This document shows, piece by piece, positions 48,436 to 64,000 of a stretch of DNA of 64,000 nt; position 1 is the first letter of the stretch, and the number at the start of each line of letters is the position of its first letter. Below the pieces are notes generated by a model. The model was not told the DNA's origin. It did not search any database and saw only the letters and a list, made by a program, of their open reading frames with translations. This DNA comes from a virus. The stretch spans positions 19,646 to 83,645 of IMG/VR virus record IMGVR_UViG_3300009703_002430. The stretch is one strand, 5' to 3'. The position numbers and the translations under genes were made by a program.

Positions 48436-51400
48436 TTATGCTTTCTCTTCGCCCCACGTATCAGAAGGAACAGTAACCTTGTTTAAGTTTTCTCCAGTAG
48501 TGCTGTGCCACCTAACACCATCAGAGTACATTAATGCTACCGACTCATCATCCTTCCTCAACATAATTATGACTCCCATGTTTGCGCTTGCGCTTGGTAG
48601 CAGAGGCATTAGTTGGTCATTGTCCAGCCCATTTCCTCTAAGAATTGGAACTCTTAAAAACCCATTACTGTTAATAACTGTGTTATTCGGATCTTCTGTA
48701 ATATCGTGACTTGTTGCTTTATTGCTATCATCTTGAACTTTTGATAACACGCTGTTACTGTAATTCACTACAGTGCTTGCGATTGTTGTTCTAAACAAAG
48801 GATTTGATTGACCAGCTGTTCCAGCGATATGGAACGCAGTTGTGGTAGCATTGTTTGGAATCACATGAAGCGAAGCGCTTGGGTCTCTAGTTATAGCACC
48901 AACTGAAACTCTTCTTACAGTACTGGTAGCGTCACCACCAATTACATTTGAGTAGTTGAACCTATCATTATATCCAGCTCTGAGAACACCAGAAGATGTT
49001 GTACCGTTAATAATATCCTCAAGGGGGTCAAAGTTTCCAACACTAACATTGCGCGACCCATGACCATACATTCCAGCGCCAACGCCAAGGAACAAGTTGA
49101 AATTCTCAGTTGTTCTGTGAGAGGTAGAGGTGTTTTGCTGACCTCGCATTCTTCCTGCCCAATACCCAATTGCCGTCGTTCCATTTTGCGGATTGGTTGT
49201 ACTTGGAGAATTGGTAAAACCAGCCCTGTTGCCTATGAAAACACTATCAGCCATTCCAGAGGCTTTCCACGCAGCGCCTTCACCTATTGCAATCACTGAA
49301 TCTGCCGCATATGCTTCATAGCCAGCGTTACGACCAATCGCTAACAATCCAGAAGAACTCACACTTCCGTATCCAGCATTTTCACCAATTAGTACGTTTC
49401 CAGATGTCATGTACGACAACTTGCCAGCGTTAATACCAACAGCGATTGTTTCAAACACGCCGCTAGAGTTATGACCTGCGTAACTACCAATAATTACTGA
49501 ATCGCGACCTCCACTAGCCCAAGAGTAAGCGTTGTCACCAACCACAAACATGTCTTGACTAGTCCGTGATCCTTCACCGGCCTTATATCCAAAGTATTGT
49601 GAGTCTTCTATCGCACTTGTTCTTGCGCCAGCCTCTCTACCCATAAAGACTATCTGACTAGCGTTGGTAGCTTGGAAAGCGGCGGCGTTACCCATGATAT
49701 CGCCATTATTAATTCCTGAAGTCTCATATCCAGCATTGGGGCCTATCATGTTTACATTGTTATTTCCGCTGGATGAGAAGCCTGCACCAACACCAAGTAG
49801 CGCTGATGAGTCTAATCCGCTAGACGCAAAGCCTGCGGAGTTTCCAAGGAATATAGCATTATCATGGTCAAGACCTCCACTGGCGGCTTGAGCACCTAGT
49901 GCTACACTATACTGCATATTTATCGAGTTAGCACCAGTGAATGGGCCAACAAATATATTGCCACCGTTTAATCCACTAAGCGATCCAACTCCAGCAGTTG
50001 TGCCAAGTCTAATCTCATGCCCCTTAGTAGCAGCTCCTTCAGGGTCTCCAGATACAACCACTAACCATTGAGGATCAATATAGTGATACTGCCCAACGTT
50101 TGTAGTGTAGATTCGTATACCAGAGCTAACCGCCTGTGATCCAGTCTGCACGCCGGAGACCATTGTGATGTCTCTTCTCATGACACCAGAGGTAGAGTTT
50201 ATGTCAACTCTCATATATCCAGAGGCCGTTGAGTACACTCCTGAGACAGAAAGTATTTCAGTGTTTAGATAGCCAGAGCCTGTGTTAAATACTCCAGATA
50301 CAGAAAGTATGTCAGTATTCAAATAGCCAGAGCCTGTATTAAATACTCCTGACACAGAAAGAATATCCGTATTCAGGTATCCAGAAGCCGTCTGAATATC
50401 TGAATTGAGGTATCCAGAAGCGGTCAGTAACATACCGCCCACACCAGACACTTCATATACAGCGCCAGAGGTAGCATTTATGTTGGTTACATTGGTCTGA
50501 ATATCTGTGTTCAAATATCCCGAAGCTGTAAGTAGCATACCGCCTACTCCAGATACTTCGTATACAGCACCTGACGTGGCATTTATATTCGCTACATTGG
50601 TTTGAATATCTGAGTTTAGATAACCAGAAGCATCGTAAATAACTCCAGATAGAGTAGGTATCTGACCATTCGAGGCAAATGTACTAGAGTCAAGTCCAGA
50701 ACCTGTTACCAAAAGAATGTCTCTATTCAAAATACCCGACACAACATTACCAGAAGCAATGTTAAAGCCTTCAGTAGCAGAACTTTGGCTGTCAACATAA
50801 GCCTTTATAGACTGCTGCGTTGCCAGCTTAGTAGCGCTATTGCTAGCCATATTATCTTCGTCTAACAGGTAGTTAGGATGTATGTTAAAGAATAGACCCT
50901 GACCTGTACCGCTAGTTTGAATACTTCCGCTAGCACCATTCAAGAATGAGAATGTCAAATCGCCTGTAGTGTCTGCGGCGCTTCCTGCGTCGGCAGTAAG
51001 TGTTGCTCCGGTTACGTCACCGCCTCCAGCAGACGATACGGAAGTATCAACATAGGCTTTGATTGACTGTTGAGTAGCCAAGTGCGTGGCTGAGTTTGAG
51101 GCCATGTTATCTTCGTCTTTAATAGCCGTTCCGGTTATTTGAGTGTTGAAGATGGGGCTAGTCAGCGTTTTGTTTGTTAATGTTTGAGAGCCAGCAAGAG
51201 TGACCGTAGTTGAGGTAGGAGCTTTCTCTGCTATCATACCAGACAAGGTTGGAATTTGTCCGTTTGCATCAAAGCCAGTAGAGCTATCACCAGACCCAGT
51301 TATCAGGAGAATATCCCTATTCATAACACCTGAAGTGGCATTTATGTTTGCTGCATTTGACAGGATGTCTGTATTTAGATATCCAGAGGCAGTTGAGTAT

Positions 51401-53541
51401 ACTCCTGAGACTGACAATATGTCTGTATTCAAGTATCCAGAGCCAGTATTAAACACTCCGGAAACTGATAGTATGTCAGTATAAAGATATCCAGATGCAT
51501 CCAGTAGGTTCTTGTTACCGGAGGCGTCATAATCAGGATGGACGTTAAAGAATATTGCTCCACCCGTTCCGCTAGTTTGTACACTTCCACTAGCTCCAGT
51601 CAGGAATGACAAGTCTAGGTTGCCCGTATCGTCTGAAGCACTTCCAGTATCTGCAGAGAAAGTTGCTCCAGTTATATCTGCAGCTCCGCCACCTCCACCT
51701 GCGTGACCAGAGGCCCAATAAGCCCATCCAGAGACGAGTTCCAGACCTGTATTGAGTGCTGGTATTTCGCCGGAAGCCCAGTAAGCTATACCAGAAACAT
51801 GGGTAGCTATTCCAGAAACAGACAGGATATCTGTGTTTAAGTAGCCAGATGCAGTATTTAGATTGCCTGATACTGATAGTATATCCGTGTTCAAGTAGCC
51901 GGAAGTTGCTGTAAGCATACCAGACAAAGTAGGTATCTGACCAAAGCCTTTGAACGAAGTGTCACCAGCTCCAGAGCCAGTAATAATAGTCACTATGTTT
52001 GTGCTTTGACTACTATCTTGAAAGCTTCCGTCTGCATTTAGTACAATTGGCTCTTCTGAAGCAACTTTTCCACCGTTCCAGTACAAGAGACCAGATACAG
52101 AATAAAGCCCGCTGGCAGTATCTGCTGGGGATGACGTGGAGTTAATGCCAGAAAGATAGACAACTTGAAAGCCTCCGCTTGGAGCTTGTATGTTATAGCG
52201 TGGGCGAGAAGTAGCATCTGGCCCGATAGAAATTCTAGAATCTCCTGAATAACCTTTTATAAAGTCTTGTATGTTTACTTCGCCGTCATTAAAGAAGTAT
52301 CCAGAAGCATTTATAGACTCTTCAGTAACCCAAGAGTCTGTGTAAATTGAATTGCCATTATTATAGTTGTGTCTCCAAGTCCACTTCTTATCGCCTTCAT
52401 CAGTTTTGATGACAACACCGCCGTCGTCTACATCTGCACCACTCTTATTATATAAAGAATTACCACTCATAGAACCCAGTTCTACTTGATGGTCATAGAC
52501 TGTAACATTGGTACTATCTATATAAGTTACGCTACCACGAACATTAAGATTGCCACCCACGCTGACATCGCTGCTTATATCAACACTTCCGGTAATATTA
52601 AGGTGCGAGCCGTTTTCATTCCACACTAATTTATCAGTATAAACAATAACCCCAGACTCATCCCAATATGGAATACCGCTAGAGTATATCTCGCCAGAGT
52701 GTCTAACGTAAAAATCTTTTAGATCAGGAATGTCGTATTTGCTTAAAGCTCTGAAGCTTGGATACCCGTCTTCGCAAGCTCCGTTGCCATAGGTACAACC
52801 GCTAGCAGGGCCAGCTAATACAGCACCAGCGTTCTGCTTCTTAAACTTAAGAATTTGTTCAACATCTCCGTCAAACTCAAATGCGTCATCTGTTGCAGTT
52901 GTAGAGTCTGTGACATTTGGCATGAAGTGCCAATGCTGCTGACCACTTGGGAACAAGATACCAGACTGGTCTACAACAATACCAGAACTTCTGATAAACC
53001 CTTGGCCAATATTTGGAGCGCCTGCTACGTCGATGGCAAACTCAGGGGTTGATTGGGATACGCCAAGTCTTGAATTAGTGGAGTCCCAAATAAGACTTGG
53101 GCTATAATTGAGTATCTGATCTGTTTCCCAAAATGCTATACCGCTAGAAACGGGATCTTTATAGGCGCTGTCTAAGCCATGAGCTGTAAATACAGAGAAG
53201 TCTCCGGGATAAGTAACGTATATCTCTTTGACGCCGATTGGGAAGTTAACACATCCTAAATTAGGATTGTTACTGTCAGTTACTGTATTTCCCTTTGTTC
53301 GTATAGGGAATCTTCTAAGCTGGTTTTGTAAGTATGCATCATCAGTGGCTGAGTAGTAATACCCAGATCCAACTTCATAATTAGTGCCATCTGTAATTGC
53401 ATAAAAGACTAAGTCGTTATGGACATAGTAGTCACTAAAGGGACTAAAACCCGGAGCGGCTCCAGCAAGCTCCATGTTGCCAGAACCATTGCTCTCGCTT
53501 GTCTCTTTTACACGGTCTGATAGTTTTATATACTCAGCCAT
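48436..53541 (-). CDS. Fibre/appendage protein (1701 aa): DRVKET N-module, SG-repeat shaft, YadA-like beta-roll C-terminal region
   Basis: LSDRVKETS start; ~12 SGY(L/M)xxDI repeats; two MASNSATxLATQQSIKAYVD motifs; ~15-aa xxIGxxAG repeats. Confidence 0.85.
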   Translation of the reverse strand: MAEYIKLSDRVKETSESNGSGNMELAGAAPGFSPFSDYYVHNDLVFYAITDGTNYEVGSGYYYSATDDAYLQNQLRRFPIRTKGNTVTDSNNPNLGCVNFPIGVKEIYVTYPGDFSVFTAHGLDSAYKDPVSSGIAFWETDQILNYSPSLIWDSTNSRLGVSQSTPEFAIDVAGAPNIGQGFIRSSGIVVDQSGILFPSGQQHWHFMPNVTDSTTATDDAFEFDGDVEQILKFKKQNAGAVLAGPASGCTYGNGACEDGYPSFRALSKYDIPDLKDFYVRHSGEIYSSGIPYWDESGVIVYTDKLVWNENGSHLNITGSVDISSDVSVGGNLNVRGSVTYIDSTNVTVYDHQVELGSMSGNSLYNKSGADVDDGGVVIKTDEGDKKWTWRHNYNNGNSIYTDSWVTEESINASGYFFNDGEVNIQDFIKGYSGDSRISIGPDATSRPRYNIQAPSGGFQVVYLSGINSTSSPADTASGLYSVSGLLYWNGGKVASEEPIVLNADGSFQDSSQSTNIVTIITGSGAGDTSFKGFGQIPTLSGMLTATSGYLNTDILSVSGNLNTASGYLNTDILSVSGIATHVSGIAYWASGEIPALNTGLELVSGWAYWASGHAGGGGGAADITGATFSADTGSASDDTGNLDLSFLTGASGSVQTSGTGGAIFFNVHPDYDASGNKNLLDASGYLYTDILSVSGVFNTGSGYLNTDILSVSGVYSTASGYLNTDILSNAANINATSGVMNRDILLITGSGDSSTGFDANGQIPTLSGMIAEKAPTSTTVTLAGSQTLTNKTLTSPIFNTQITGTAIKDEDNMASNSATHLATQQSIKAYVDTSVSSAGGGDVTGATLTADAGSAADTTGDLTFSFLNGASGSIQTSGTGQGLFFNIHPNYLLDEDNMASNSATKLATQQSIKAYVDSQSSATEGFNIASGNVVSGILNRDILLVTGSGLDSSTFASNGQIPTLSGVIYDASGYLNSDIQTNVANINATSGAVYEVSGVGGMLLTASGYLNTDIQTNVTNINATSGAVYEVSGVGGMLLTASGYLNSDIQTASGYLNTDILSVSGVFNTGSGYLNTDILSVSGVFNTGSGYLNTEILSVSGVYSTASGYMRVDINSTSGVMRRDITMVSGVQTGSQAVSSGIRIYTTNVGQYHYIDPQWLVVVSGDPEGAATKGHEIRLGTTAGVGSLSGLNGGNIFVGPFTGANSINMQYSVALGAQAASGGLDHDNAIFLGNSAGFASSGLDSSALLGVGAGFSSSGNNNVNMIGPNAGYETSGINNGDIMGNAAAFQATNASQIVFMGREAGARTSAIEDSQYFGYKAGEGSRTSQDMFVVGDNAYSWASGGRDSVIIGSYAGHNSSGVFETIAVGINAGKLSYMTSGNVLIGENAGYGSVSSSGLLAIGRNAGYEAYAADSVIAIGEGAAWKASGMADSVFIGNRAGFTNSPSTTNPQNGTTAIGYWAGRMRGQQNTSTSHRTTENFNLFLGVGAGMYGHGSRNVSVGNFDPLEDIINGTTSSGVLRAGYNDRFNYSNVIGGDATSTVRRVSVGAITRDPSASLHVIPNNATTTAFHIAGTAGQSNPLFRTTIASTVVNYSNSVLSKVQDDSNKATSHDITEDPNNTVINSNGFLRVPILRGNGLDNDQLMPLLPSASANMGVIIMLRKDDESVALMYSDGVRWHSTTGENLNKVTVPSDTWGEEKA
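50200..51910 (-). repeat. Degenerate coding repeats (18-aa SGYLNTDILSVSGVFNT(G/A) and 35-aa units)
   Basis: Visible in translation; DNA copies are synonymously diverged. Confidence 0.85.
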
Positions 53542-53575
53542 TTATATAGATCCCTATGTATTTTGGAGTTATAGT

Positions 53576-54550
53576 TTAAAAGTCCACGGCTACCGTTACG
53601 TCTGGTTCAAACCCTCTGGTTTCATCAGGGCTCATACCAAATACCACGATGTCGTTAATTTCTCCATCAACATATGTATCGGCTTTGTTTAAAACGCCTA
53701 TCGTCAAAGTCCTGAGACTATTTTTGTCGTCTCCCTGTCTTAATACTACACCAACTGTGTTAATATCGAAGTCTTCCAGACTACCACTGGCAGTTCTAGA
53801 GTTACTAGTGGCGCACACAACATAGTTATTGTCTTTGAATATGCCAGATTGGAATGTGACTTGGTATTTACCTACACCCTTCCAGTTGAGTTGCTTGATG
53901 TTGTATGCAGATCTTACATTTGGGGCGTAAGTGCCGTTGCCACTTCCCTCAAAGTTAATCCAAGCTTTTGCAACTCCCTTGGCACTACTCATTCTAGATG
54001 CATCATTTTTAAATATGAATGTTCCAGAAGTCCCTACATTAATGTCGTCACCATAGTGTTTCCAGTCAAAACCTAAACCTCTCTCAGGTGTTCCGGAGGC
54101 TCCTATCCAGTTATAATCTCCATCACTTGGATTTGTAACGGGATGGCCTAGAGCAACACCTGACTGCATGGGTCTTGCTCCATTTCTAGGCAGATACTGT
54201 AGGTGGTCATCATCTGTAAGACCAGCTATGGAACCATGGTCGATATTTGACTCACCCGGAAACGGGTTGTACTGATACCCTGTAGTTGGCCCGCTGGCAG
54301 AGTTAGGAAAGTAAATTCCAGACTCAGCTATGAACTGACCATAGCTTCCATCTTTAATCTTAGCTCTAACATTAGAGCCAGTAAATGGAAACTCAGTATC
54401 ATGATTACCGCTGCCGACTATATTATTGATAGAGTCAACAGTGTCCACCATGTTATTTCTAACGTCTGCCGCAGAGACAGCACCAGAATTGTTATCTGGA
54501 ATAGCACCTGAAATGCTAGCTATCAAATCAGCCTTCTTTTGTAAAGCCAT
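53576..54550 (-). CDS. Fibre-like structural protein
   Basis: PDNNSGAVSAADVR N-term; HGSIAGLTDDDHLQY motif; C-term AKAWINFEG...GVGKYQVTF domain common in phage fibres. Confidence 0.7.
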   Translation of the reverse strand: MALQKKADLIASISGAIPDNNSGAVSAADVRNNMVDTVDSINNIVGSGNHDTEFPFTGSNVRAKIKDGSYGQFIAESGIYFPNSASGPTTGYQYNPFPGESNIDHGSIAGLTDDDHLQYLPRNGARPMQSGVALGHPVTNPSDGDYNWIGASGTPERGLGFDWKHYGDDINVGTSGTFIFKNDASRMSSAKGVAKAWINFEGSGNGTYAPNVRSAYNIKQLNWKGVGKYQVTFQSGIFKDNNYVVCATSNSRTASGSLEDFDINTVGVVLRQGDDKNSLRTLTIGVLNKADTYVDGEINDIVVFGMSPDETRGFEPDVTVAVDF

Positions 54551-54561
54551 TTAAATCTCCC

Positions 54562-55080
54562 TTAATATAGATATCCGCCGCCACTTCTGTGGTCGCCTCT
54601 ATGGTTTCTTATTACATAGTCACTACCCGGACTGTATGGGCCAAGTATTCCTTGACCACCAATGCTGTTTCCGGCTTTATAATCTAAAACAGCCTTGTCG
54701 TATTTCTGACATAAATCAGCATACAAGACTGTAAGTGTTGAGGCAACGCCTCTTAGATCTATTGCGGAAGGGCCATCTTTGATGGATATGGAATTTGCAG
54801 CCTCACTTCTTATCTGACTACCAATCATAACACACGAAGCTTTTAAACACACTAGATTAATAAAAGCATTGTCCTTTGTGTCGTCAGTCGGATCTGGAGT
54901 AAGTTTACATTGTTCTACGTTTATTGTATATGTATTATCAAAATCAACCTCTAAGGTGACTAGTTGTGCAGCAACTAAGAGGGTTGTTTCTATTCTGTGG
55001 TCGCTAAACTTATAAGCACTAGAATCAATATCATCAATTAAGTACCTAAGCATTGTAGACATTTGACCTTGCCAAGACAT
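54562..55080 (-). CDS. Putative head-tail adaptor
   Basis: N-term MLRYLIDD...FSDHRI resembles the adaptor (V)RxLIxD...(F/L)SDEEI motif; helical, 172 aa. Confidence 0.55.
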   Translation of the reverse strand: MSWQGQMSTMLRYLIDDIDSSAYKFSDHRIETTLLVAAQLVTLEVDFDNTYTINVEQCKLTPDPTDDTKDNAFINLVCLKASCVMIGSQIRSEAANSISIKDGPSAIDLRGVASTLTVLYADLCQKYDKAVLDYKAGNSIGGQGILGPYSPGSDYVIRNHRGDHRSGGGYLY

Positions 55081-55090
55081 AGTTTACCCC

Positions 55091-55402
55091 TTATAGGTTA
55101 CAGTGGACTTTGAAAGTATGTATATTTGTATAATATGTCCCTGCTGATAAAGTCACCTTACCTTGAAGTTTGTAACTTCCAGCTTCGTCCAAGTCTCCTG
55201 CTATTGTGTCGTAGTACATTACGCCAGAGACAACACTTCCGTCTGTCAAGGTTGCGCCAGTGCGAGTAATTATCTCGTCATCTGGCTTCCTAAAATTAAT
55301 TTGTAACAACGACGCCGAGGAAAGATCCACCACTACGCCGCTATCTTTTACAGTACATAGGAATCTAGTACCAATGTCGTTTACATGTATTTCGCTAGCC
55401 AT
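55091..55402 (-). CDS. BppU N-terminal-like Ig-fold structural protein
   Basis: HVNDIGTRF...VDLSSA...INFRKPD...GDLDEAGSYKLQGKV pattern. Confidence 0.6.
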   Translation of the reverse strand: MASEIHVNDIGTRFLCTVKDSGVVVDLSSASLLQINFRKPDDEIITRTGATLTDGSVVSGVMYYDTIAGDLDEAGSYKLQGKVTLSAGTYYTNIHTFKVHCNL

Positions 55403-55479
55403 TATCGTTCCAATGTAATATTGACTTGTCTAGTTACTTCTGCGTCTATTTCTATAATTGTTATCTTATCGTCAGACAT
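55402..55479 (-). CDS. 25-aa microprotein (MSDDKITIIEIDAEVTRQVNITLER) absent from the ORF track
   Basis: Fills the gap exactly: TGATG overlap upstream, TAATG overlap downstream; resembles the C-terminus of the 65-aa neighbour. Confidence 0.7.
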   Translation of the reverse strand: MSDDKITIIEIDAEVTRQVNITLER

Positions 55480-55676: not shown

Positions 55677-55679
55677 TGT

Positions 55680-56012: not shown

Positions 56013-56045
56013 TTTGTCTCTCCTATGGTGGAAAATTAATCTTCT

Positions 56046-56094: not shown

Positions 56095-56808
56095 TTAGTC
56101 TACAAATAAGTAGAAAGCCGCCGCAGTTGTTGTATCATCATCACCGCCGCCTGACTCTGTATATGTAATTACGACCTTTGGAGCTAGGGAGCTGCTAGTA
56201 TCACGGTCTTTCCAGTCAATTGTCCAGTTGCTACTGCCGTTATGGGCTGAGGGTGTTAATTTCAAATTTATATTACTTCCGCTACTCCAGCCACTTCTGT
56301 TGACCAGCTCTTGCAAAATAGTCTTAATTTCAAGTCCTGCAGATGGGTCTGCATGGGTTGGATACCAAGCGTTATTCCAAGTCTCGTTTGGGCCCATTCC
56401 TCCGTAGGAAGCATCAATAAAACTGCTAACAGTAGCAGATGCAGTTGTAAGTGTCCAACCATTTACAGTAGAATAATTTCCGGGTTTAGAAGCGTCGTCA
56501 ACATCCTCAGCTTTGACAGTCATGCCTTCGCCGGGGTCACTGCCCCCATCAAATCCAGCATTGGCGTGATGGTAAACAAAGAGTTTCGCGCTATCAATTG
56601 TTGCGCCTTGTGCAATAGTTAAATTCTTAAGATGAATCCAGCCAAAATAAGACTTGTTATGCTGGCCATCGCTATTATCTCTTCCTATTCTGACTTTAGC
56701 ATTGTGGGAGAATGTTGTGGTATCTCCCATGTAACCAGTTTGGTCATCTCCAAAAAGAATATAACCATCTTCATCGTTTGCTGCAACTTGTACTGTAAGT
56801 GATGCCAT
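56095..56808 (-). CDS. DNRLRE/CBM96-like beta-sandwich protein (putative carbohydrate binding)
   Basis: IAQGATIDSAKL, ILQELVNRSGW and APKVVITY motifs. Confidence 0.6.
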   Translation of the reverse strand: MASLTVQVAANDEDGYILFGDDQTGYMGDTTTFSHNAKVRIGRDNSDGQHNKSYFGWIHLKNLTIAQGATIDSAKLFVYHHANAGFDGGSDPGEGMTVKAEDVDDASKPGNYSTVNGWTLTTASATVSSFIDASYGGMGPNETWNNAWYPTHADPSAGLEIKTILQELVNRSGWSSGSNINLKLTPSAHNGSSNWTIDWKDRDTSSSLAPKVVITYTESGGGDDDTTTAAAFYLFVD

Positions 56809-59800
56809 TATGACGGTGCCTTTACATCTTGTCCTATGATAAATCCATCTAGGGCCGCTGATCCCGCAAGCCCTCTGATTATGAAACCGTATACATCTGC
56901 TGAGCCGTTTCCAGTTGTCAGTGTTGGAGCTGTTCCTCCGGGCCAGTGTACTGTAACTCTACTACCGCTGTTAACTTGTACATCATCAAAACCGGCACTA
57001 GCACTCAGAACTGCATCCCCTCCGCCAGATCCCGGTTGAATAAATCTAACAATAAACCTTTGCCCCACAGCCGCGTTTGTAATATCTATCGCAGTGGTAG
57101 TCGTATTGTCTGTTAGGGTTATTTCAAAATAATTGCCCTCGCTTAAATCTATAGCTATTGTGTCATCATCTGTTTGTGCATTTATACCAGCTCCCGGAAT
57201 TATTGCTCCAGTGACTTTTAACTCTCCTGCTAGATCAACATCACCGTCAATATCTACAGCATCTAGGTTTGTTGTTCCATCAATATCGACATTTCCAGAA
57301 ATATCCAGAGTAGCAGCGGTTAATTCACCAGTAAGGGTTACATTTCTAAACGACGACACATCTTTATTTGCGTCAACTGTTACCGTCTTGCTAGCCACGA
57401 CGGTTCCAACCGCAGCACCTGTGTCATTATAGTTTAACTCAGCGGCTGTTGAGCTAACATTTGTACCGCCGATATCAAGGGTGGTAACGCTTATTTCCCC
57501 AGCCACCGTTACTAGGCCATCGGCAAGGGTGATAAGGTCTGTATCGTCTGTGTGGCCAATCGTGGTGCCGTTGATGATGACATTGTCCACTGTAAGCGTT
57601 GTAAGTGTTCCTAGCGATGTAATATTTGTTTGTGCGGCGGTTGTCAAAGTACCACCAAGACTTGTTGCAGTTAACAGCCCCGTGTCTGAATTAAATGTAA
57701 GATTACTTCCTGACTTAGGGCCTAAGTCTCCTGTAGCGGCAGTTACAAACAAGGGGAAGCACGTTGTGTCGCTAGACTCATCTGCTACAGTTACGGTTGT
57801 GGCTATGGCAGCGGTTCCTGAAGTGTCTTGGTTAAGTGTGCCAACAACAAAGTCTAGCGTGTTGTCTGAATCATCATATGTAACTCCAATACCTGTTTCG
57901 GTGTTACTACCAACCATAGCGCCAACGGTATCAGCAATAAACTCGTCAAGGGCTGTTCCGTTTACTGTAATTGCGTCAGCTTCAAGGGTGCCATCAATAT
58001 CGGCATTTCCAGAGATGTCAAGAGTTGTGGCGTCTAGCTCACCGGCTACTGTCACAACGCCGTCTGCAAGGGTAATTAAGTCTGTATCGTCTGTGTGTCC
58101 AATAGTTGTGCCGTCAATGAGAACATTGTCTATGTCTAAAGATCCACCAGTTATAAGGCCGGTAGTTGTGATCGTACTCGAACCAGTATCAATGTTGCCA
58201 AACCCAGAAGTAATAGATCCGCCATTAAGAGCGCCAACAGACGTAATGTTTGTTTGTGCGGCGGTTTGTAGAGTTCCTGCTAATTGTGTCGCTGTCAATT
58301 TTCCTGTGCTAGGATTGTATGTAAGGTTGCCATCCATTTCCAGCCCTACATTGCCCGTAGAGCTTGTGGCACCCTCAACAAATGTAATCAGATTATCTTC
58401 ATTCGTGCTTTCATTATCTGTGACTAACACATGAGCAGCGTTAGTAGCATTAGTAACTGTTACACCTGCTATAACTGTATTAAGAGCAGTCCCATCTACA
58501 GTAATTGCGTCTGCCTCTAGAGTTCCATCAATATCCGCATCGCCTGATATATCAATTGAGGCTGCGTCTAGTTCACCACTAATTGTGATATTGCGACCAC
58601 CTGTAATATCTTTGTTTGAATCTGTTATGATGGCTTTACTTGCAATGACCGTACCGTTTGTAATACCATCTATAAGATTGATGTCTGCAGCACTTGCTGT
58701 AACGAGAACTCCACCAAGTTTTAGCCCGTTTGAACCATCGTGTGAAGCGATGTCAAAGTCATAGGCGCCATCGGCAAAGGTGGTGTTTCCTGTAATAGTT
58801 ATTGTAGAGCCATCGGCAGAAATGCTATCAAGTGCTATATCTCCAACATTGGTAATATCAGCATCATTGAAAGAAGTAGCACCAAGGGTATTAGAAGCGG
58901 CTGTTGAAGTAAGGCCAGCCGCAATTGTTACTCCGCCACCATCTGCTATTGTAATTGCATTATCACCGTCTGTAAATTCAATCAAAGGTGTTTGTATAGA
59001 TGTTGAGCCTTTGACCAAAGGAGCCGTAAAAGAAGTAACCGCACTACATGCATCGGCTAATTCAGCGGAATCTATACTATCATCTGCTATTGTCAATGCT
59101 CCACCTGCGGCTACAGTTGCGTCTCCAGATATGTCGGCAAATATTGCGTCTTGCAAGTTAGAGAAAGTTATTTTCTTTTCTGTTCCATTGTCAGAGAACA
59201 TAAAGTGGTCTTGAGTCTGATGCAATCCCGCGCCCCCAAGAGCACTAAGTGCGTCAATGTCTACAGTTGCTGATATTGTTTGCCAGCTACAGGTTCCATC
59301 CCCATCGGCCCTTAAGTACTTAGTTGCAGCTTCATTGCCATTGGTAGTGGATTTCAGTTCTGTACCTTCAAGATCTATAGTAAATGTCAAATCGTAAGGA
59401 TCAGCATCTGTACCGTTGTCTGTGTCAGTCCAGTTAATATCAATACCAGTGCCTTCAACAAATTTTACTTCTTTATTTTCAGTGATTGTGACTTCTGTTC
59501 CGTCACCGTCTTCAAGCACAAAGCCAGCACCCATTGTATTTGTGTCGGCAGCTGCAATAGTTATTGCGCCATCACCTTCTGTGATAGTGACGTTACTGCC
59601 CTCAGTTAGGGTGGCATTATCCCAAACGCTTGCTGTATTATCATATATTAGCAAATGTCCCGCAGCAGGAGAACTTATGTTGGTATCATTGAGTTCCGCT
59701 ATCGTATCTTCTGTAGCGATTTGAGTGTCCACATAATCTTTGACTGCGGCAGACGTTGGTAAGCTAGTATCGTTATCACTGCTTCCAATACCTTCAGATT

Positions 59801-62800
59801 CAGTCACTATAGCACTAGCGGCGAAGTCTGAAACAGCCAAGTCTGGTAGCCTAGCTGAGGCTATAGTTCCGCTAAGCTGTGTAGCCCCAATGGTTTTATT
59901 AGTAAGCGTGTCACTAGAACTGGCGGTGATATATCCGGCATCATTAACAGCTTTAGGGGTCAAGGCGGTAGTCTGATTGCTGCTAATTGTATTAGTTAAG
60001 ATTACCAACCCAGAAGCGCTAGTGGTTGTCATTGGTATATTGAATTGAGTACCGTGTAACACTAAGCCAGAACCAGCAGTATATGTAGTGTTATCATTTG
60101 CAGATGCTATTGTCACAGTATCGCTACCGGCGGTAGTCGTAATCGTTACGTTGGAACCACCAGCTAATGTCAGGGTGTCAGTCTTAGCATCTGCCTCGAC
60201 ATCGTCTTGACCAGCAACTGCAACAGTCGAAAAGGCATTCTGATTTGTTTCACCTGCTCCAGCCGCCGTCCAAGTAAATTTGCCCGTAGCGGCATCGAAA
60301 GATGGGATGTAATTATCTACTGGGCTATTGGTGGCTAAAAGGTTGTACCCACTAATTGCAGAGTCAAACTGTGTTCCGTGCAGTACCAATCCTGAACCAG
60401 CTGTATAGGTCGTGTTTGTGTCTGTTACTGTTTCAGCAGCAGAAGTAATTGCTGTAACGTGACCATTGCTATCGAGGGTTATGTCTTGAATGTATGTTCT
60501 ACTGCCATTATCAACAGATGAAGCTGCGGAAATATTTGGGTGAGCTGTTAAGTAGCCAGCATCATTAACGGCCTTCGGAGTCAATGCTGTTGTTTGGTTA
60601 CTGCTTATTGTATTACTTAGTATAACCAAGCCAGACGCACTGGTTGTTGTCATTGGTATGTTAAATTCTGTACCATGCAATACTAAGCCAGACCCCGCCG
60701 TATAGGTTGTGTTGGTATCAGATGTTTGAGCAACCCAAGTAAACTCACCACCTACATAAGAAGGCACATAATTATTAACAGGACTATTTGTAGCCAGTAT
60801 ATTATTACCACTAATTGCTACGTTAAACTGAGTTCCGTTTAATGAAATGCCTGAACCTGCAGTATATGTAGTATTAGTATCTGTGGCCGCTATCGTAACG
60901 GTGTCACTGCCAGCATTGGTTGTAATCGTCACGTTGCTACCACCGGCTAGTGTCAACGTATCAGTCTTAGCATCTGCGGCAACATTGGTCTGACCATCAA
61001 CTGCAACAATTGAAAATGCGTTTTGGTTAGTTTCACCACCTCCGGCGATTCCGGAAACAGAAAGTATGTCTGTGTAAAGGTAACCAGAGGCAGTAAGAAC
61101 CTGCCCTCCTACGCCAGAAACTTCATGTAGCCTGTTGTCAAGATTTCCCGAAGCAGCAGCCAGATCGTATGTGTAAGCCTTTTCGGATAATAGGGAAGTA
61201 ATCCCTGCTGCATAGTTACCAGAATCGTTGATTGCTGCAGCTAACTCATTAAGAGTATTTAAAGCACCCGGTGCTCCATCTACCAGATTTGATACTGCCG
61301 TTGTAACGTATGCAGTCGTCGCAACCCTTGTACTATTATTGCTAGCGGCTTGAGTTGGCGCAGTTGGGTTTCCAGTAAGAGCCGTGTCAGCAAGGAATCC
61401 AGCCCCAATTACAGAACTAACGGTTGACACAGGTGTTCTTTTACTACTGCCATCAGAGTCTATAAACACCATCTGATCTGTGGAAATCATTGTCTCGTTT
61501 GCGAGCTGCTGCAAGTCTACGTTTACAGTAACGCTACTTTCAGTGCCGCCACCTGACATTCCAGATCCAGCAACTATAGCTGTGATATCACCAATCGTTG
61601 GTTTATTAGTAACATTGTTCCAGTGTACTTGGCCACCACCGCCAGAAGTATTAAGTTCACTTTCTGTATAATATCGAGAGTCTAGTTGTCCACCAGTAAG
61701 CTCAGACTCAGTAAAGTATCTACCGTCTAGGTTTACAGTACCGGCAGTACTTGTTGTCACATGTCCGTTTGAATCTAGGGTAATCTGTATGTCTTGTATT
61801 ACAGTGCCATCAGAGTTATCTAAACTAATGTTGCTGCCCTGTGAGACGCTTGGGTGCGCTGTTAGATATCCTGCGTCGTAGACAGCCTTTGAGGTGGCTA
61901 CTACATTTGCATTATCAGCAACTGTGTTAGAGAGAGTAACTAAACCTGCTGCACTCGTGGTTGCTGTTGGTATGTTTATTTCAGTACCATTTAGAACAAT
62001 ACCTGATCCAGCGGTATATGTAGTATTTGTAGCAACTAGATCTACAGTGCCATCGCTATCTTGATAAGTTGCAGCTATATTTGTCTCAGTATTACCAGAG
62101 AACATGGCTCCAACAATATCTTGTATTTCTTCTGTGGTTTTTTGAACTGCGTTTATTGTCACGTTGTGACCAGAGCCATTACTGGTATTTAAATAAGATA
62201 CAGTTACATTAGTTCCGGCGTCAATATTTAAAAAGTCAGAACTTCTTATTGTTTTGCTTAGGTCAACGCCGTCTAGATATAATTCAAATCCAGCGTAGGT
62301 GGTGTAGCCAGCGTCGTTTGTCAAAAGGCTTACATTTCTGCCGGACTCTAAAACTGTGCTATCAGTGTCAATTTTAAACGTCGTGCCGTCTAATGTAAGA
62401 CCACTACCAGCAGTGTAGGTAGTATTTGTGTCTGCTACAGTTTCCGTACCAACTGAGACGCCGCTAACATGGCCAAATTGGTCAAAGAGTATGTTTTGTA
62501 TATAAGTTCTGCCCGCAAAGCTTGTGCTCCCAGAGGCAGTAGATATGGCTGGATGTGCTGTTATGTATCCAGCATCATTTGTTAAAAAGCTTACCAAGTC
62601 TCCAGAGGACATACCTTCGCCAGCACTAGACATTATGCTTCCGTCTCTAAACTCTAGGCTGGCAGTTTTTAGTTTGACGCCGCTTATTACACCTACGTAA
62701 TCTACATAGGCCAGAGTAGACTGACTGTTGTTCTCCCAAACTTGCAGATGCGCAGACTGACTATTGGCTCCCCTAACCTTTACGGGTACTACTGCAGCCT

Positions 62801-63524
62801 CGGCATTTAAAAACTTAGCTCCGCCAGACTTACTCAGATTAAAAAGATCAGAGTCTCTGTGTTTTATCCATGCACCGTTAGAGTAGTTTACTATAAGAGC
62901 ACTATCGCTAGTTGCGTAAACTCCTGCAGATCCATTGTTACCGTATACATATCCATATGTTGGGGCGGCAGTTGAATTAGAAGGGCCATCTTTTAAGCCA
63001 ATCTTCCAAGTGGGGGCAGAGCTACTTTCTAAGTTAAGAGCTACTGTTCTGTCATTGTCGTTATCTACATAGAAATGAAACAAGTCGCCTGCGTCTGTTC
63101 TCTTGACGGTAAGCGGTGCGGAGATAGCGCCAGTCGCTGAGGTTATCTGTGTTGTTCCGTCTGGAAATAATATGCCAGAGTAGTATGGGGATACGCCGCT
63201 AGCATATCCATTTTCAGTCATTATGAACGCTCTGTTAGCTGGGTATGTACAGAATATTGTTGACACACCGCCTGAAAGAGATAGTTTAGAGCCTGTACTG
63301 CTAGATAGCACGACATCTCTTGATAGACTGTTAGAAGATGAGGTATAAGTACCTATTCCAATCTCCCAATTTACGCCATCTTCTATACCGTAATAAGTCT
63401 TGTTGTTATTCCCAATAGCATCAGCAAATGTCTGGAACCCGCCATAGGCAGAACCGAGTGTTACAGCTCCTGTTCCACTCGTGGTACTTGTCTCTTTTAC
63501 TCTGTCTGTTAAAACAAAAGCCAT
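56808..63524 (-). CDS. Long mosaic fibre protein (2238 aa)
   Basis: LTDRVKETS N-module; repeated TNTTYTAGSG units; ISGxADIDGTLEADAIT and GTTIGHTDDTDLITLADG repeats; C-terminal fibre domain. Confidence 0.88.
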   Translation of the reverse strand: MAFVLTDRVKETSTTSGTGAVTLGSAYGGFQTFADAIGNNNKTYYGIEDGVNWEIGIGTYTSSSNSLSRDVVLSSSTGSKLSLSGGVSTIFCTYPANRAFIMTENGYASGVSPYYSGILFPDGTTQITSATGAISAPLTVKRTDAGDLFHFYVDNDNDRTVALNLESSSAPTWKIGLKDGPSNSTAAPTYGYVYGNNGSAGVYATSDSALIVNYSNGAWIKHRDSDLFNLSKSGGAKFLNAEAAVVPVKVRGANSQSAHLQVWENNSQSTLAYVDYVGVISGVKLKTASLEFRDGSIMSSAGEGMSSGDLVSFLTNDAGYITAHPAISTASGSTSFAGRTYIQNILFDQFGHVSGVSVGTETVADTNTTYTAGSGLTLDGTTFKIDTDSTVLESGRNVSLLTNDAGYTTYAGFELYLDGVDLSKTIRSSDFLNIDAGTNVTVSYLNTSNGSGHNVTINAVQKTTEEIQDIVGAMFSGNTETNIAATYQDSDGTVDLVATNTTYTAGSGIVLNGTEINIPTATTSAAGLVTLSNTVADNANVVATSKAVYDAGYLTAHPSVSQGSNISLDNSDGTVIQDIQITLDSNGHVTTSTAGTVNLDGRYFTESELTGGQLDSRYYTESELNTSGGGGQVHWNNVTNKPTIGDITAIVAGSGMSGGGTESSVTVNVDLQQLANETMISTDQMVFIDSDGSSKRTPVSTVSSVIGAGFLADTALTGNPTAPTQAASNNSTRVATTAYVTTAVSNLVDGAPGALNTLNELAAAINDSGNYAAGITSLLSEKAYTYDLAAASGNLDNRLHEVSGVGGQVLTASGYLYTDILSVSGIAGGGETNQNAFSIVAVDGQTNVAADAKTDTLTLAGGSNVTITTNAGSDTVTIAATDTNTTYTAGSGISLNGTQFNVAISGNNILATNSPVNNYVPSYVGGEFTWVAQTSDTNTTYTAGSGLVLHGTEFNIPMTTTSASGLVILSNTISSNQTTALTPKAVNDAGYLTAHPNISAASSVDNGSRTYIQDITLDSNGHVTAITSAAETVTDTNTTYTAGSGLVLHGTQFDSAISGYNLLATNSPVDNYIPSFDAATGKFTWTAAGAGETNQNAFSTVAVAGQDDVEADAKTDTLTLAGGSNVTITTTAGSDTVTIASANDNTTYTAGSGLVLHGTQFNIPMTTTSASGLVILTNTISSNQTTALTPKAVNDAGYITASSSDTLTNKTIGATQLSGTIASARLPDLAVSDFAASAIVTESEGIGSSDNDTSLPTSAAVKDYVDTQIATEDTIAELNDTNISSPAAGHLLIYDNTASVWDNATLTEGSNVTITEGDGAITIAAADTNTMGAGFVLEDGDGTEVTITENKEVKFVEGTGIDINWTDTDNGTDADPYDLTFTIDLEGTELKSTTNGNEAATKYLRADGDGTCSWQTISATVDIDALSALGGAGLHQTQDHFMFSDNGTEKKITFSNLQDAIFADISGDATVAAGGALTIADDSIDSAELADACSAVTSFTAPLVKGSTSIQTPLIEFTDGDNAITIADGGGVTIAAGLTSTAASNTLGATSFNDADITNVGDIALDSISADGSTITITGNTTFADGAYDFDIASHDGSNGLKLGGVLVTASAADINLIDGITNGTVIASKAIITDSNKDITGGRNITISGELDAASIDISGDADIDGTLEADAITVDGTALNTVIAGVTVTNATNAAHVLVTDNESTNEDNLITFVEGATSSTGNVGLEMDGNLTYNPSTGKLTATQLAGTLQTAAQTNITSVGALNGGSITSGFGNIDTGSSTITTTGLITGGSLDIDNVLIDGTTIGHTDDTDLITLADGVVTVAGELDATTLDISGNADIDGTLEADAITVNGTALDEFIADTVGAMVGSNTETGIGVTYDDSDNTLDFVVGTLNQDTSGTAAIATTVTVADESSDTTCFPLFVTAATGDLGPKSGSNLTFNSDTGLLTATSLGGTLTTAAQTNITSLGTLTTLTVDNVIINGTTIGHTDDTDLITLADGLVTVAGEISVTTLDIGGTNVSSTAAELNYNDTGAAVGTVVASKTVTVDANKDVSSFRNVTLTGELTAATLDISGNVDIDGTTNLDAVDIDGDVDLAGELKVTGAIIPGAGINAQTDDDTIAIDLSEGNYFEITLTDNTTTTAIDITNAAVGQRFIVRFIQPGSGGGDAVLSASAGFDDVQVNSGSRVTVHWPGGTAPTLTTGNGSADVYGFIIRGLAGSAALDGFIIGQDVKAPS
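59931..60713 (-). repeat. Two 162-nt coding copies (59931-60092, 60552-60713) of a 54-aa unit
   Basis: 52/54 aa identical, 33 synonymous codon differences (hand alignment). Confidence 0.9.
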
Positions 63525-63539
63525 GAACAGCTCTCCCTA

Positions 63540-64000
63540 CTAGAATGTTTGTACGGTTCCGTCTATGTGCATGTTGCCATTCTGATCTAGATACGCAACC
63601 ATTTGGCCCAAGTTGTTAAACCATGTTTGTATAGCGTCTGACGACGAAGAAGATGACCTTACATCAAGAGTTCCACTAGGATTGAGTATTGCTCTACCAA
63701 CGGAAACTCTTTGATCTGCCATGTCACCACCAATGATATCTCCAACATTCAATTTGTGACTACTGCTGCCTTGTATCAATCTGTATGGCGAAGTTCCACC
63801 TATCCCTACGGTTAGTTCTATGTTTCTGTCTCCACTGACAGACTCAAGAGCATTGTCACCAATACCGATAGATCTACTAGTCTTCGCATTTAGACCTGCT
63901 GAGTTACCAATAAACACACCCATGCGAGAACCAGAAGCATAGTGACCAGTATTTGGCCCGATAAACACAGAGTTGTCTGCTTGATTGGCGTTCATACCTG
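63540..64000 (-). CDS. 3' part of a fibre gene truncated by the window edge; paralog of the 1701-aa C-terminal region
   Basis: Frame open to the edge (..GGT ATG); VFIGxxAG repeats; IIGGDMADQRVSVG..NPSGTLDV vs VIGGDATSTVRRVSVG..DPSASLHV. Confidence 0.8.
   Translation of the reverse strand, partial: GMNANQADNSVFIGPNTGHYASGSRMGVFIGNSAGLNAKTSRSIGIGDNALESVSGDRNIELTVGIGGTSPYRLIQGSSSHKLNVGDIIGGDMADQRVSVGRAILNPSGTLDVRSSSSSSDAIQTWFNNLGQMVAYLDQNGNMHIDGTVQTF

What the first reader, a model, noticed from the sequence alone, without database searches (positions are those of the whole stretch)
48436..63995. Ser-Gly dipeptides strongly enriched in a subset of structural proteins: candidate glycosylation sequon for the glycan cluster
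Seen (hand counts): 1701-aa fibre ~74 SG vs ~24 GS; 324-aa ~11; 558-aa ~13; 3937-aa ~90; N-half of the 2238-aa ~30. In contrast the TMP has ~15/2380 and the 1827-aa and 1918-aa proteins ~11 each. SG keeps a fixed register in unrelated repeat types: 7+11 spacing in the shaft repeat and the same loop position in the 15-aa beta-roll (AGFASSG, AGFSSSG, AGYETSG, AYSWASG, AGHNSSG, AAWKASG). Known: Ser-Gly is the attachment motif for eukaryotic glycosaminoglycans, and some phages glycosylate virion proteins. Inference: this phage O-glycosylates (possibly sulfates) exposed Ser-Gly sites using its own sugar genes, giving a glycan-coated virion. A purely structural turn preference is the alternative.
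Basis: partly seen in the sequence, partly recalled or inferred. Interest (0 to 1): 0.8.

Follow-up and report, generated by a model that had tools for sequence, protein, structure and literature searches.

The report
Conserved Ser-Gly turns in phage fibres
The outer tail and fibre proteins of this uncultured marine phage lineage carry two to three times more Ser-Gly pairs than chance, at conserved spots just before beta-strands; this most likely reflects how the lineage builds its turns, and sugar attachment at these serines is possible but unproven and is not tied to the sugar genes in this window.

Summary
The tape measure, 1827-aa and 1918-aa proteins are at or below chance.

- **Nature of the excess.** It acts at the amino-acid level, since all six Ser codons are used. 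It is directional and Ser-specific: TG, NG and DG are not enriched. It is not only a repeat effect.
- **Lineage-wide.** 100 homologues of the 3937-aa protein give O/E 2.35±0.31. 150 fibre representatives give 2.40, with GS 0.96.
- **Position.** The whole excess lies at conserved sites with the pattern φ-x-[P/A/T/V]-S-G-φ-x-φ, a loop-to-strand junction. Rare SG sites equal rare GS sites.
- **Strength of selection.** Ser of SG is the third most conserved residue class, after Trp and Gly. It is kept across TCN/AGY codon switches.
- **Interpretation.** This is partly supported. The window's own sugar genes are absent from 11-12 of 12 near-complete relatives that show equal enrichment. All 12 relatives do carry a conserved GT1/GT2 island beside the tail module.
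- **Controls.** T4 fibres show no excess. A complete 33-kb phage with no GT1 or GT2 match shows O/E 2.3.

My odds are about 0.55 for a structural motif and about 0.27 for O-glycosylation. This scan reported the same phenomenon earlier on other genomes.

The parts
48436..53541 (-). 1701-aa fibre (p1701): SG 74 / GS 24 / expected 27.2
   Evidence: Homologues P0101-P0107 and P0112-P0123 have O/E 2.3-2.8.
52612..53541 (-). N-terminal anchor domain of p1701 (aa 1-310), with near-invariant SG at residues 59, 133, 186, 193, 247 and 296
   Evidence: SG59 is present in 146 of 151 representatives, SG186 in 143 and SG193 in 133. AF2 model pLDDT 84: 6 of 10 SG glycines lie 0-1 residue from a strand start.
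51232..51981 (-). Shaft repeat block 1 of p1701 (aa 521-770): 21 SG; units of 7 and 11 residues each begin with SG
50107..50757 (-). Shaft repeat block 2 of p1701 (aa 929-1145): 21 SG
49132..50106 (-). Gly/Ala-rich beta-roll-like repeats of p1701 (aa 1146-1470): 11 SG against 6.4 expected; period 17-20 residues
53576..54550 (-). 324-aa tail-fibre-like protein: SG 11 / GS 6 / expected 3.4
   Evidence: phrog_11355 tail fiber protein, E 1.4e-9
56808..63524 (-). 2238-aa fibre-like protein: SG 41 against 23.3 expected; the excess is confined to the N-half (28-31 SG). It shares a shaft unit with p1701.
23056..34869 (-). 3937-aa FG-GAP protein encoded after the tape measure gene: SG 87 / GS 47 / expected 34.4, at dispersed sites
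   Evidence: 100 homologues have O/E 2.35±0.31. 43 conserved SG alignment sites against 8 for GS.
19612..21288 (-). 558-aa protein: mild excess, SG 13 against 7.5 expected
34869..42011 (-). Tape measure protein, an internal control: SG 16 against 16.0 expected
   Evidence: family orthologues 1.08
8327..19584 (-). 1918-aa and 1827-aa tail proteins, controls without excess (O/E 0.75 and 0.84)
   Evidence: family orthologues 0.91 and 0.90
203..4665 (+). Variable distal end of a sugar island: HAD phosphatase, PfkB-like kinase, NTP-transferase/RpiB fusion, sulfotransferase and WavE-like gene. The island runs at least 9.8 kb further left of the window.
   Evidence: These genes are not conserved in relatives.

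Best explanation
**What it is.** The Ser-Gly excess is a lineage-specific 'strand-entry' turn motif under strong selection. It occurs in the outer tail and fibre proteins of an uncultured phage lineage, probably marine, with genomes of about 150-175 kb.

**How it works (shown).** At some 35-60 fixed positions per giant protein, and at the start of every unit of the fibre shaft repeat, a beta-strand ends. Two loop residues follow, the second often Pro, Ala, Thr or Val. Then come Ser-Gly, and the next strand begins with alternating hydrophobic residues.

**How it works (inferred).** Gly supplies the backbone conformation for the tight turn or bulge. Ser is the small polar residue this lineage uses before it, where other phages use Asp, Asn or Thr.

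**Why the dipeptide is over-represented.** The excess arises because these sites are inherited and kept by purifying selection, not because SG density as such is selected. The sugar genes inside this window are a variable cassette and are not the cause.
For: - All of the excess lies at conserved sites. Per protein, SG has 33.8 conserved, 24.6 intermediate and 16.9 rare sites; GS has 5.4, 12.1 and 16.0. Rare SG therefore equals rare GS, so there is no selection for density or for shifting sites.
- The context of the 43 conserved sites shows hydrophobic residues at -3 (0.55) and after the Gly at +1, +3 and +5 (0.54, 0.52, 0.44; columns 2, 4 and 6), against a background of 0.32. Pro is enriched threefold at -1. 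This is a turn between two strands.
- In the AF2 model of the fibre N-domain (pLDDT 84), 6 of 10 SG glycines lie 0-1 residue from a strand start, against 20% of other Gly. S296-G297 is a two-residue hairpin loop. The p3937 model of aa 230-1000 shows the same for conserved sites 258, 486 and 928.
- Gly is co-conserved: G is kept in 87% of cases when S is kept.
- Enrichment occurs without phage glycosyltransferases. A complete 33-kb phage with no GT1 or GT2 match has a fibre with SG 32, GS 18 and 14.2 expected. MW202675, which has no GT1 match, has SG 14 and GS 4.
- The window's own sugar genes are absent from 11-12 of 12 near-complete relatives that show equal enrichment.
- Several invariant SG sites lie in the virion-proximal anchor domain, one of them inside a confidently modelled strand pair.
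Against: - A plain turn position should exchange Ser with Asp, Asn or Thr. Here S is kept 77% of the time when G is kept, with T, N and D each at about 3%. For comparison, D in DG is kept 35%, N 38% and T 40%.
- Ser of SG is the third most conserved residue class (0.54), after Trp and Gly and above Pro, Cys and Phe.
- It is kept across TCN/AGY codon-family switches at 20 of 34 conserved sites.
- The excess is not a general property of fibres. T4 fibre and baseplate proteins pool to SG O/E 1.01. Other viral-contig (mostly marine) fibres sharing a module with p1701 have SG roughly equal to GS, both at about 1.4-1.5.
- The lineage always carries a GT1/GT2 island beside the tail genes.
- No solvent accessibility could be computed, because the tools return no model coordinates.
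Confidence: 0.55

Rival explanations
1. The conserved SG serines, or a large subset of them, are O-glycosylated in the infected cell. The enzymes would be the lineage-conserved glycosyltransferase island: three adjacent GT1/GT4-type enzymes of about 330, 375 and 560 aa, plus a GT2. The variable sugar-synthesis cassette, which in this phage includes the window's genes, would set the glycan's composition. The result would be glycan-decorated outer tail proteins.
For: - The serine is under Ser-specific selection, with Thr excluded.
- The excess is restricted to outer fibre-type proteins. It is absent from the tape measure, p1827, p1918 and, in a complete relative, most non-structural proteins.
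- GT1 is present in 12 of 12 near-complete relatives with 3-4 copies each, and GT2 in 10-11 of 12, in an island next to the tail module.
- This phage has the orthologous GT1 about 10 kb left of the window.
- The usual route to glycosylated hydroxymethyl-pyrimidine DNA is not conserved: ThyA family in 2 of 12.
- T4 fibres and most other viral-contig fibres lack the SG/GS asymmetry, and GT1 is rare among those other phages, in 2 of 44 records.
- There is a precedent. TibC heptosylates serines but not threonines of TibA, including Ser-313 in the sequence N-S-G-G (PMC4358343).
Against: - No chemical evidence exists.
- The co-occurrence of the glycosyltransferase island with the SG excess is one clade, so it counts as one evolutionary observation.
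- There is no excess of fast-turnover SG sites, unlike the shifting sites of viral glycan shields.
- SG enrichment of 2.3-fold occurs in a complete phage with no GT1 or GT2 match.
- GT1-bearing phages outside the lineage show no asymmetry: in L074, SG is about equal to GS.
- The acceptor of the glycosyltransferases is unknown and could be a host envelope polymer.
- Several invariant sites lie in the anchor domain or inside strands.
Confidence: 0.27
2. The window's own cluster (HAD phosphatase, kinase, NTP-transferase/RpiB, sulfotransferase, WavE-like) builds a possibly sulfated glycan that is attached to SG serines.
For: The genes exist and are adjacent to the tail module. They form the distal end of a larger island that also contains WecB, a dehydratase, a methyltransferase, GT2 and GT1.
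Against: - NTP-transferase/RpiB is found in 1 of 12, the WavE-like gene in 0 of 12 and the sulfotransferase in 1 of 12 near-complete relatives that have the same SG excess.
- The glycosaminoglycan-type context is absent: SG sites with two or more acidic neighbours make up 7-15%, against a background of 20-35%, and SGxG occurs at 3-6 sites per protein.
Confidence: 0.05
3. Chemical stability drives the choice of residue. Asn-Gly and Asp-Gly are prone to deamidation and isoaspartate formation, so long-lived virions in seawater replace them at turns with the stable Ser-Gly.
For: - NG is depleted in all structural proteins here: p3937 family 0.74, fibres 0.70, TMP 5 against 12.9 expected. DG is depleted too, though more weakly in the p3937 family (0.87; 1.10 in p3937 itself) and the fibre representatives (0.94).
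- T4 long-fibre proteins gp34 and gp37 show the reverse pattern for NG and DG: NG 1.2-1.4 and DG 1.4-1.8, with SG at 1.7 in gp34 and 0.74 in gp37.
Against: - Other viral-contig fibres also avoid NG, yet they use DG, TG and SG about equally (DG up to 1.4, TG about 1.5) with no Ser preference.
- The tape measure avoids NG and DG without gaining SG.
- The idea does not explain the exclusion of Thr.
Confidence: 0.08
4. The excess is a by-product of internal repeats or of Ser/Gly-rich low-complexity sequence.
For: 42 of the 74 SG in p1701 lie in the two shaft repeat blocks. Pooled fibres from other viral contigs show SG and GS both at about 1.5, through S/G clustering.
Against: - GS is at chance: 0.88 in p1701 and 1.08 in the p3937 family.
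- The non-repetitive N-terminus of p1701 has O/E 2.7.
- The sites in p3937 are dispersed and conserved by position in homologues of 31-57% identity.
Confidence: 0.03

Closest known systems
Tight beta-hairpin and beta-arch turns ending in glycine (type I turn with G1 bulge; two-residue hairpin loops)
   Same: Gly is conserved at the last loop position or first strand position, with a small polar residue before it, Pro often one residue earlier, and strands on both sides.
   Different: In the general motif (my own knowledge) Asp, Asn, Ser and Thr interchange. Here only Ser is accepted: 77% kept, with T, N and D at about 3% each. The motif is also used far more often than in T4 fibres or other viral-contig fibres.
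Bacterial autotransporter heptosyltransferases (AAH/TibC) hyperglycosylating AIDA-I and TibA
   Same: Many serines, but not threonines, of a repetitive beta-structured adhesin are modified in the cytoplasm. One mapped site is the Ser of N-S-G-G (PMC4358343). This is the closest known way the system could work if the SG serines are modified.
   Different: No GT9-family enzyme is found in 12 of 12 relatives. The conserved phage enzymes are GT1/GT4-type and GT2. No modification has been shown.
Eukaryotic glycosaminoglycan attachment site (xylosyltransferase Ser-Gly consensus)
   Same: The Ser-Gly core dipeptide.
   Different: The acidic flanks and the SGxG pattern (the family definition is from my own knowledge) are absent; acidic neighbours are in fact depleted. 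The SG sites here are followed by hydrophobic strand residues.
Mycobacteriophage virion glycosylation by phage-encoded glycosyltransferases
   Same: Phage-encoded glycosyltransferases proposed or shown to decorate virion proteins. PMC11256854 mentions two glycosyltransferases as suggesting capsid glycosylation.
   Different: To my knowledge the acceptors there are capsid and tail-tube subunits, not Ser-Gly turns. Here the tube-like and capsid-region proteins are not markedly enriched.

Membership tests
Glycine-terminated beta-turn / strand-entry motif | Gly conserved at the loop-to-strand junction | tested here: met
   Gly of SG is conserved at 0.58, and G is kept in 87% of cases when S is kept. 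SG glycines lie 0-1 residue from a strand start in 6 of 10 (fibre) and 5 of 13 (p3937) sites, against 20% and 13% of other Gly.
Glycine-terminated beta-turn / strand-entry motif | Flanked by beta-strands on both sides | tested here: met
   Hydrophobic peak at -3 and alternating hydrophobic residues after the Gly at conserved sites. AF2 secondary structure agrees.
Glycine-terminated beta-turn / strand-entry motif | The polar residue before Gly is interchangeable (Asp/Asn/Ser/Thr) | tested here: not met
   S is kept 77% of the time when G is kept; T 3.0%, N 3.1%, D 2.8%.
Eukaryotic glycosaminoglycan attachment sequon | Ser-Gly core | tested here: met
Eukaryotic glycosaminoglycan attachment sequon | Acidic residues flanking the site, often SGxG | tested here: not met
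   SG sites with two or more acidic neighbours: 7-15%, against a background of 20-35%. SGxG occurs at 3-6 sites per protein.
BAHT-type (AAH/TibC) adhesin hyperglycosylation | GT9-family heptosyltransferase encoded with the substrate | tested here: not met
   PF01075 found in 0 of 12 near-complete relatives, while the control genomes gave hits.
BAHT-type (AAH/TibC) adhesin hyperglycosylation | Ser-specific acceptor sites in repetitive beta-structure | tested here: inconclusive
   The sequence pattern is compatible: Ser not Thr, at turns of beta-rich repeats. No modification data exist.
Phage-encoded virion O-glycosylation (any type) | Phage-encoded glycosyltransferases conserved with the candidate substrates | tested here: met
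   GT1 in 12 of 12 and GT2 in 10-11 of 12 relatives, in an island next to the tail module. An orthologue is present in this phage.
Phage-encoded virion O-glycosylation (any type) | Sugar covalently attached to the proposed residues | not testable with these tools
   This needs mass spectrometry of virions or of co-expressed proteins.
Phage-encoded virion O-glycosylation (any type) | SG excess tracks the presence of glycosyltransferases across independent lineages | tested here: inconclusive
   - Lineage: GT1 in 12 of 12, with SG excess.
- T4: no excess.
- Other viral-contig phages: GT1 in 2 of 44 records, mostly no asymmetry.
- Counter-cases: complete G030, with no GT1 or GT2 match, has O/E 2.26; L074 carries GT1 and shows no excess.
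- In effect this is a single clade contrast.

The most novel reading that the evidence does not exclude
A widespread lineage of large uncultured phages, probably marine, uses a conserved trio of GT4-type glycosyltransferases plus a GT2 to O-glycosylate serines of a Ser-Gly strand-entry sequon on its outer tail and fibre proteins. The enzymes would be strictly Ser-specific. An O-antigen-like variable cassette of sugar-synthesis genes, which here includes a sulfotransferase, would diversify the glycan coat of the virion between strains.
Probability: 0.25. Interest if true: 0.85.

Novelty: new variant of a known kind. Interest (0 to 1): 0.55.

Why it matters
If the motif is only structural, it is a clean example of a lineage-specific 'dialect' of beta-turn building. 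A surface-type serine is then conserved as strongly as proline or aromatic core residues, which is useful for recognising and modelling the huge, unannotated fibre proteins of uncultured, probably marine, phages.

If the serines are modified, this would be a sequon-directed virion glycosylation system in tailed phages. Its variable sugar cassette would matter for host recognition, virion stickiness and persistence in seawater, and for how phage glycosyltransferase genes in viromes are interpreted. They are currently filed as 'auxiliary metabolic genes'.

The fibre N-domain (310 aa, confidently modelled, with six near-invariant SG sites) and the conserved glycosyltransferases give a small, directly testable recombinant system, even though the phage is uncultured.

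Tried and rejected
- **DNA-level motif.** Rejected: SG uses all six Ser codons and all four Gly codons, roughly in proportion to overall usage.
- **Repeat or low-complexity artefact.** Rejected: GS is at chance, non-repeat regions are enriched, and sites are conserved in distant homologues.
- **General property of phage fibres.** Rejected: T4 gives 1.01, and other viral-contig fibres have SG about equal to GS.
- **Glycosaminoglycan sequon.** Context not met.
- **BAHT membership.** No GT9 found.
- **Conserved glycosyltransferases serving T4-style glycosylation of hydroxymethyl-pyrimidine DNA.** Weakened: ThyA family in 2 of 12.
- **Searches that found nothing.**
  - No PDB sequence homologues of p1701, p3937 or the 556-aa GT1.
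  - No convincing PDB fold match for either AF2 model.
  - No relatives of p3937 in the GenBank phage collection.
  - No relatives of p1918 in IMG/VR with a single-sequence query.
  - The shaft 7+11 repeat was not found in 80 loci that share the fibre module.
  - Atlas look-ups for p1827 and p1918 gave only weak baseplate-like leads or nothing.
- **Literature.** Two broad searches on phage glycosylation and sulfotransferases gave little that was usable.
- **Solvent exposure of SG serines.** Could not be computed, because model coordinates are not returned.
Full report
**Setting.** The window is part of an uncultured tailed phage, and no whole genome is held for it. The minus strand carries a long structural module. 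In gene order it encodes a 2238-aa protein, a 324-aa tail-fibre-like protein (phrog_11355), a 1701-aa fibre, tube-region genes and a 2380-aa tape measure. These are followed by a 3937-aa FG-GAP protein, then 588-, 558-, 1827-, 1918- and 250-aa proteins. The plus strand from 203 to 4665 encodes a HAD phosphatase, a PfkB-like kinase, an NTP-transferase/RpiB fusion, a sulfotransferase and a WavE-like protein.

| Protein | SG | GS | Expected | O/E |
|---|---|---|---|---|
| p1701 | 74 | 24 | 27.2 | 2.72 |
| p324 | 11 | 6 | 3.4 | 3.24 |
| p558 | 13 | 8 | 7.5 | 1.72 |
| p3937 | 87 | 47 | 34.4 | 2.53 |
| p2238 | 41 | 34 | 23.3 | 1.76 |
| TMP | 16 | 10 | 16.0 | 1.0 |
| p1827 | 11 | 13 | 13.1 | 0.84 |
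| p1918 | 12 | 21 | 15.9 | 0.75 |

- In p2238 the excess lies in the N-half, with 28-31 SG.
- SG is the single most enriched of the 400 dipeptides in p1701 and p3937 (z about 9; the next dipeptide reaches 5.2 and 2.5 respectively). TG, NG, DG and GG are not enriched.
- All six Ser codons and all four Gly codons are used at SG, so selection acts on the peptide and not on a DNA word.
- The residue after SG is preferentially Tyr, Val, Ile or Leu. The residue before it is Ala, Val, Pro or Gly.
- The 7+11 register of the shaft repeat is real.
- Repeats account for 42 of the 74 SG in p1701. The non-repetitive N-terminal 520 residues still have 18 SG against 6.7 expected. The 87 sites of p3937 are dispersed in non-repetitive sequence.

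**The trait belongs to a lineage, not to this phage.**
- The 3937-aa protein has at least 100 full-length homologues at 31-96% identity, on contigs up to 167 kb. Every one is SG-enriched: O/E 2.35±0.31, minimum 1.52. The other ratios are GS 1.08, TG 0.84, NG 0.74 and DG 0.87.
- By orthologue group across 79 IMG/VR loci, p3937 gives 2.27, p588 1.27, TMP 1.08, p1827 0.90 and p1918 0.91.
- In one complete 161-kb relative, enrichment is confined to a handful of structural proteins that correspond to p2238, p324, the fibre, the 330-aa protein (window 45716-46708) and p3937. Most non-structural proteins lie at or below chance.
- The fibre's N-terminal anchor domain defines a family of 2581 proteins at E≤1e-3. 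Across 150 representatives, pooled SG O/E is 2.40, GS 0.96 and TG 0.85. Their diverse C-terminal parts still show 2.11 against 0.98, and SG exceeds GS in 86% of them.
- Fibres that share only the promiscuous central module with p1701 but come from other phages have SG about equal to GS, both at 1.0-1.7. One such fibre type is found in only 1 of 12 lineage genomes, whereas the SG-rich type is found in 12 of 12.
- T4 fibre and baseplate proteins pool to SG 1.01 and GS 1.03.
- The excess is therefore neither a chance feature nor a universal property of fibres.

**Where the excess sits.** I aligned 91 p3937 homologues.
- There are 43 SG sites conserved in at least half of the sequences, against 8 for GS.
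- Per protein, SG counts are 33.8 at conserved sites, 24.6 at intermediate sites and 16.9 at rare sites. For GS they are 5.4, 12.1 and 16.0. The whole excess is therefore positional conservation. Fast-turnover SG sites are no more frequent than GS sites.
- The conserved sites share a context: a hydrophobic residue at -3, Pro/Ala/Thr/Val at -1, then S-G, then alternating hydrophobic residues. That is the signature of a tight turn between two strands.
- The AF2 model of the fibre N-domain (91-sequence alignment, pLDDT 84) places 6 of 10 SG glycines within one residue of a strand start, against 20% of other glycines. S296-G297 forms a two-residue hairpin loop.
- A weaker model of p3937 residues 230-1000 (pLDDT 66, all-beta) shows the same for conserved sites 258, 486 and 928.
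- Neither model has a convincing match in the PDB.

**What is unusual.** The serine is conserved far more strongly than a turn residue normally is.
- When the Gly is kept, Ser is kept 77% of the time. Thr, Asn and Asp each replace it in only about 3% of cases. The corresponding figures for D, N and T before Gly are 35-40%. The fibre N-domain, which is unrelated to p3937, also gives 0.77.
- Ranked by conservation, Ser-of-SG (0.54) comes third, after Trp and Gly and ahead of Pro, Cys and Phe. Other serines score 0.32.
- At 20 of 34 conserved sites, homologues use both the TCN and the AGY serine codon families. Serine was therefore retained or regained across two-step codon switches.

**The sugar genes.**
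- A Logan contig is 99.98% identical to window 1-6061. It shows that the island continues at least 9.8 kb to the left of the window. That stretch carries a GT1, a GlmU-like nucleotidyltransferase, a GT2, WecB (above the curated cut-off), an SDR dehydratase, a GT-D-like protein, a methyltransferase and an aminotransferase fragment.
- In 12 near-complete relatives (145-176 kb, three of them with terminal repeats), the window's own genes are essentially absent. The NTP-transferase/RpiB fusion is found in 1 of 12 (NTP-transferase part only), the WavE-like gene in 0 of 12 and the sulfotransferase in 1 of 12.
- All 12 nevertheless have 3-4 GT1 genes, including an adjacent trio of about 330, 375 and 560 aa. 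GT2 is present in 10-11 of 12.
- In the complete relative this trio lies directly after the tail module and before the DNA polymerase III genes, which is syntenic with the window's island. The first gene of the Logan contig is 57% identical to the conserved 330-aa GT1.
- The window's cluster is therefore the variable end of an island with a conserved glycosyltransferase core.
- A ThyA-family enzyme is present in only 2 of 12, so T4-style glycosylation of hydroxymethyl-pyrimidine DNA is not the obvious role of the core. No GT9 enzyme is present.

**Does SG track glycosyltransferases?** Only weakly testable.
- Inside the lineage, both are universal.
- Outside it, GT1 is rare (2 of 44 records, 0 of 6 complete) and the SG/GS asymmetry is mostly absent.
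- There are counter-cases in both directions. A complete 33-kb phage with no GT1 or GT2 match has a fibre with SG 32, GS 18 and 14.2 expected. A 61-kb phage with no GT1 match, whose fibre has the same N-domain, has SG 14 and GS 4. A GT1-bearing fragment (L074) shows no excess.
- In effect this is one clade contrast.

**Comparison with known systems.**
- *Glycosaminoglycan consensus.* Not met: acidic neighbours are depleted and SGxG is rare.
- *Closest working analogue if the serines are modified.* This is hyperglycosylation of TibA and AIDA-I by TibC/AAH, where serines but not threonines are heptosylated, including the Ser of N-S-G-G (PMC4358343). The enzyme family is absent here.
- *Closest structural analogue.* The glycine-terminated hairpin or arch turn. 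The motif here differs from it in the strict requirement for Ser.

**Verdict.**
- A structural strand-entry motif is the best-supported explanation (about 0.55). The evidence is that the excess consists entirely of conserved junction sites and that enrichment occurs without phage glycosyltransferases.
- O-glycosylation by the conserved island remains a live rival (about 0.27). It would explain the Ser-only selection, the restriction to outer proteins and the lineage specificity, which the structural reading explains less well.
- Earlier notes of this scan describe the same Ser-Gly phenomenon in outer tail proteins of other uncultured phage genomes, with the same unresolved alternative. I treat those notes as leads, not as support.

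Noticed in passing
L173:1-9798 (sequence immediately left of window position 1): The sugar island extends at least 9.8 kb beyond the window. That stretch carries a GT1, a GlmU-like nucleotidyltransferase with DUF6564, a GT2, WecB (UDP-GlcNAc 2-epimerase, above the curated cut-off), an SDR 4,6-dehydratase-like protein, a GT-D-like protein, Methyltransf_21 and a short DegT-type aminotransferase fragment. The layout, a conserved glycosyltransferase core with a variable sugar cassette, resembles an O-antigen locus.
   Followed up: partly
window 8327-42011 and 48436-63524 (all large structural proteins): Asn-Gly is depleted in the large tail and fibre proteins, including those without SG excess; only p588 and p2238 are not depleted. 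Examples: TMP NG 5 against 12.9 expected and DG 2 against 11.7; p1918 NG 6 against 12.3. T4 long fibres show the opposite. This may reflect avoidance of deamidation-prone sites in long-lived virions.
   Followed up: partly
window 56808-63524 (p2238) and 48436-53541 (p1701): p2238 contains a copy of the p1701 shaft unit near residue 812, so the two fibre-like genes appear to have exchanged a module. It also has six copies of a T-A-G-S-G-(L/I)-x-L-x-G-T repeat at residues 371, 504, 888, 942, 1041 and 1149.
   Followed up: no
window 19612-21288 (p558, residues about 375-425 and 440-455): A duplicated Cys-rich unit of about 33 residues (C-x-D-G-E-C-Q-P-D ... S-E-C) is followed by a poly-Glu stretch. 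It gives a weak Teneurin-EGF hit and could be a small disulfide-knotted or metal-binding module in a tail protein.
   Followed up: no
L166-L167 (G009:59021-70140): In the complete 161-kb relative, the p3937 orthologue is read as two overlapping ORFs of 1530 and 2176 aa. This could be a frameshift, a sequencing error or a genuine split. Both halves keep SG O/E of about 2.2.
   Followed up: no
window 5551-6342: An HNH/homing-endonuclease-like gene (phrog_559, E 1.4e-13) lies between the sugar cassette and the end of the tail module. It is a possible agent of cassette exchange.
   Followed up: no
L168:13344-17203 (G009): In the relative, DNA polymerase III alpha is encoded as two separate ORFs (PHP plus NTPase domain, and finger domain) directly after the glycosyltransferase island.
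   Followed up: no
L168:10649-12319 (556-aa GT1 of the conserved trio): Its nearest ESM Atlas clusters are almost exclusively viral GT4 families, and some members carry the Pfam family GT4-conflict (PF20706). The roughly 300-aa N-terminal extension has no annotation and could be an acceptor-binding domain.
   Followed up: partly
P0101 (identical to p1701): A fibre identical to p1701 is recorded on a 108-kb ENA contig. The window's 3937-aa protein is recorded on a 68-kb JGI contig. Relatives have genomes of 145-176 kb, so most of this phage genome probably lies outside the window.
   Followed up: no
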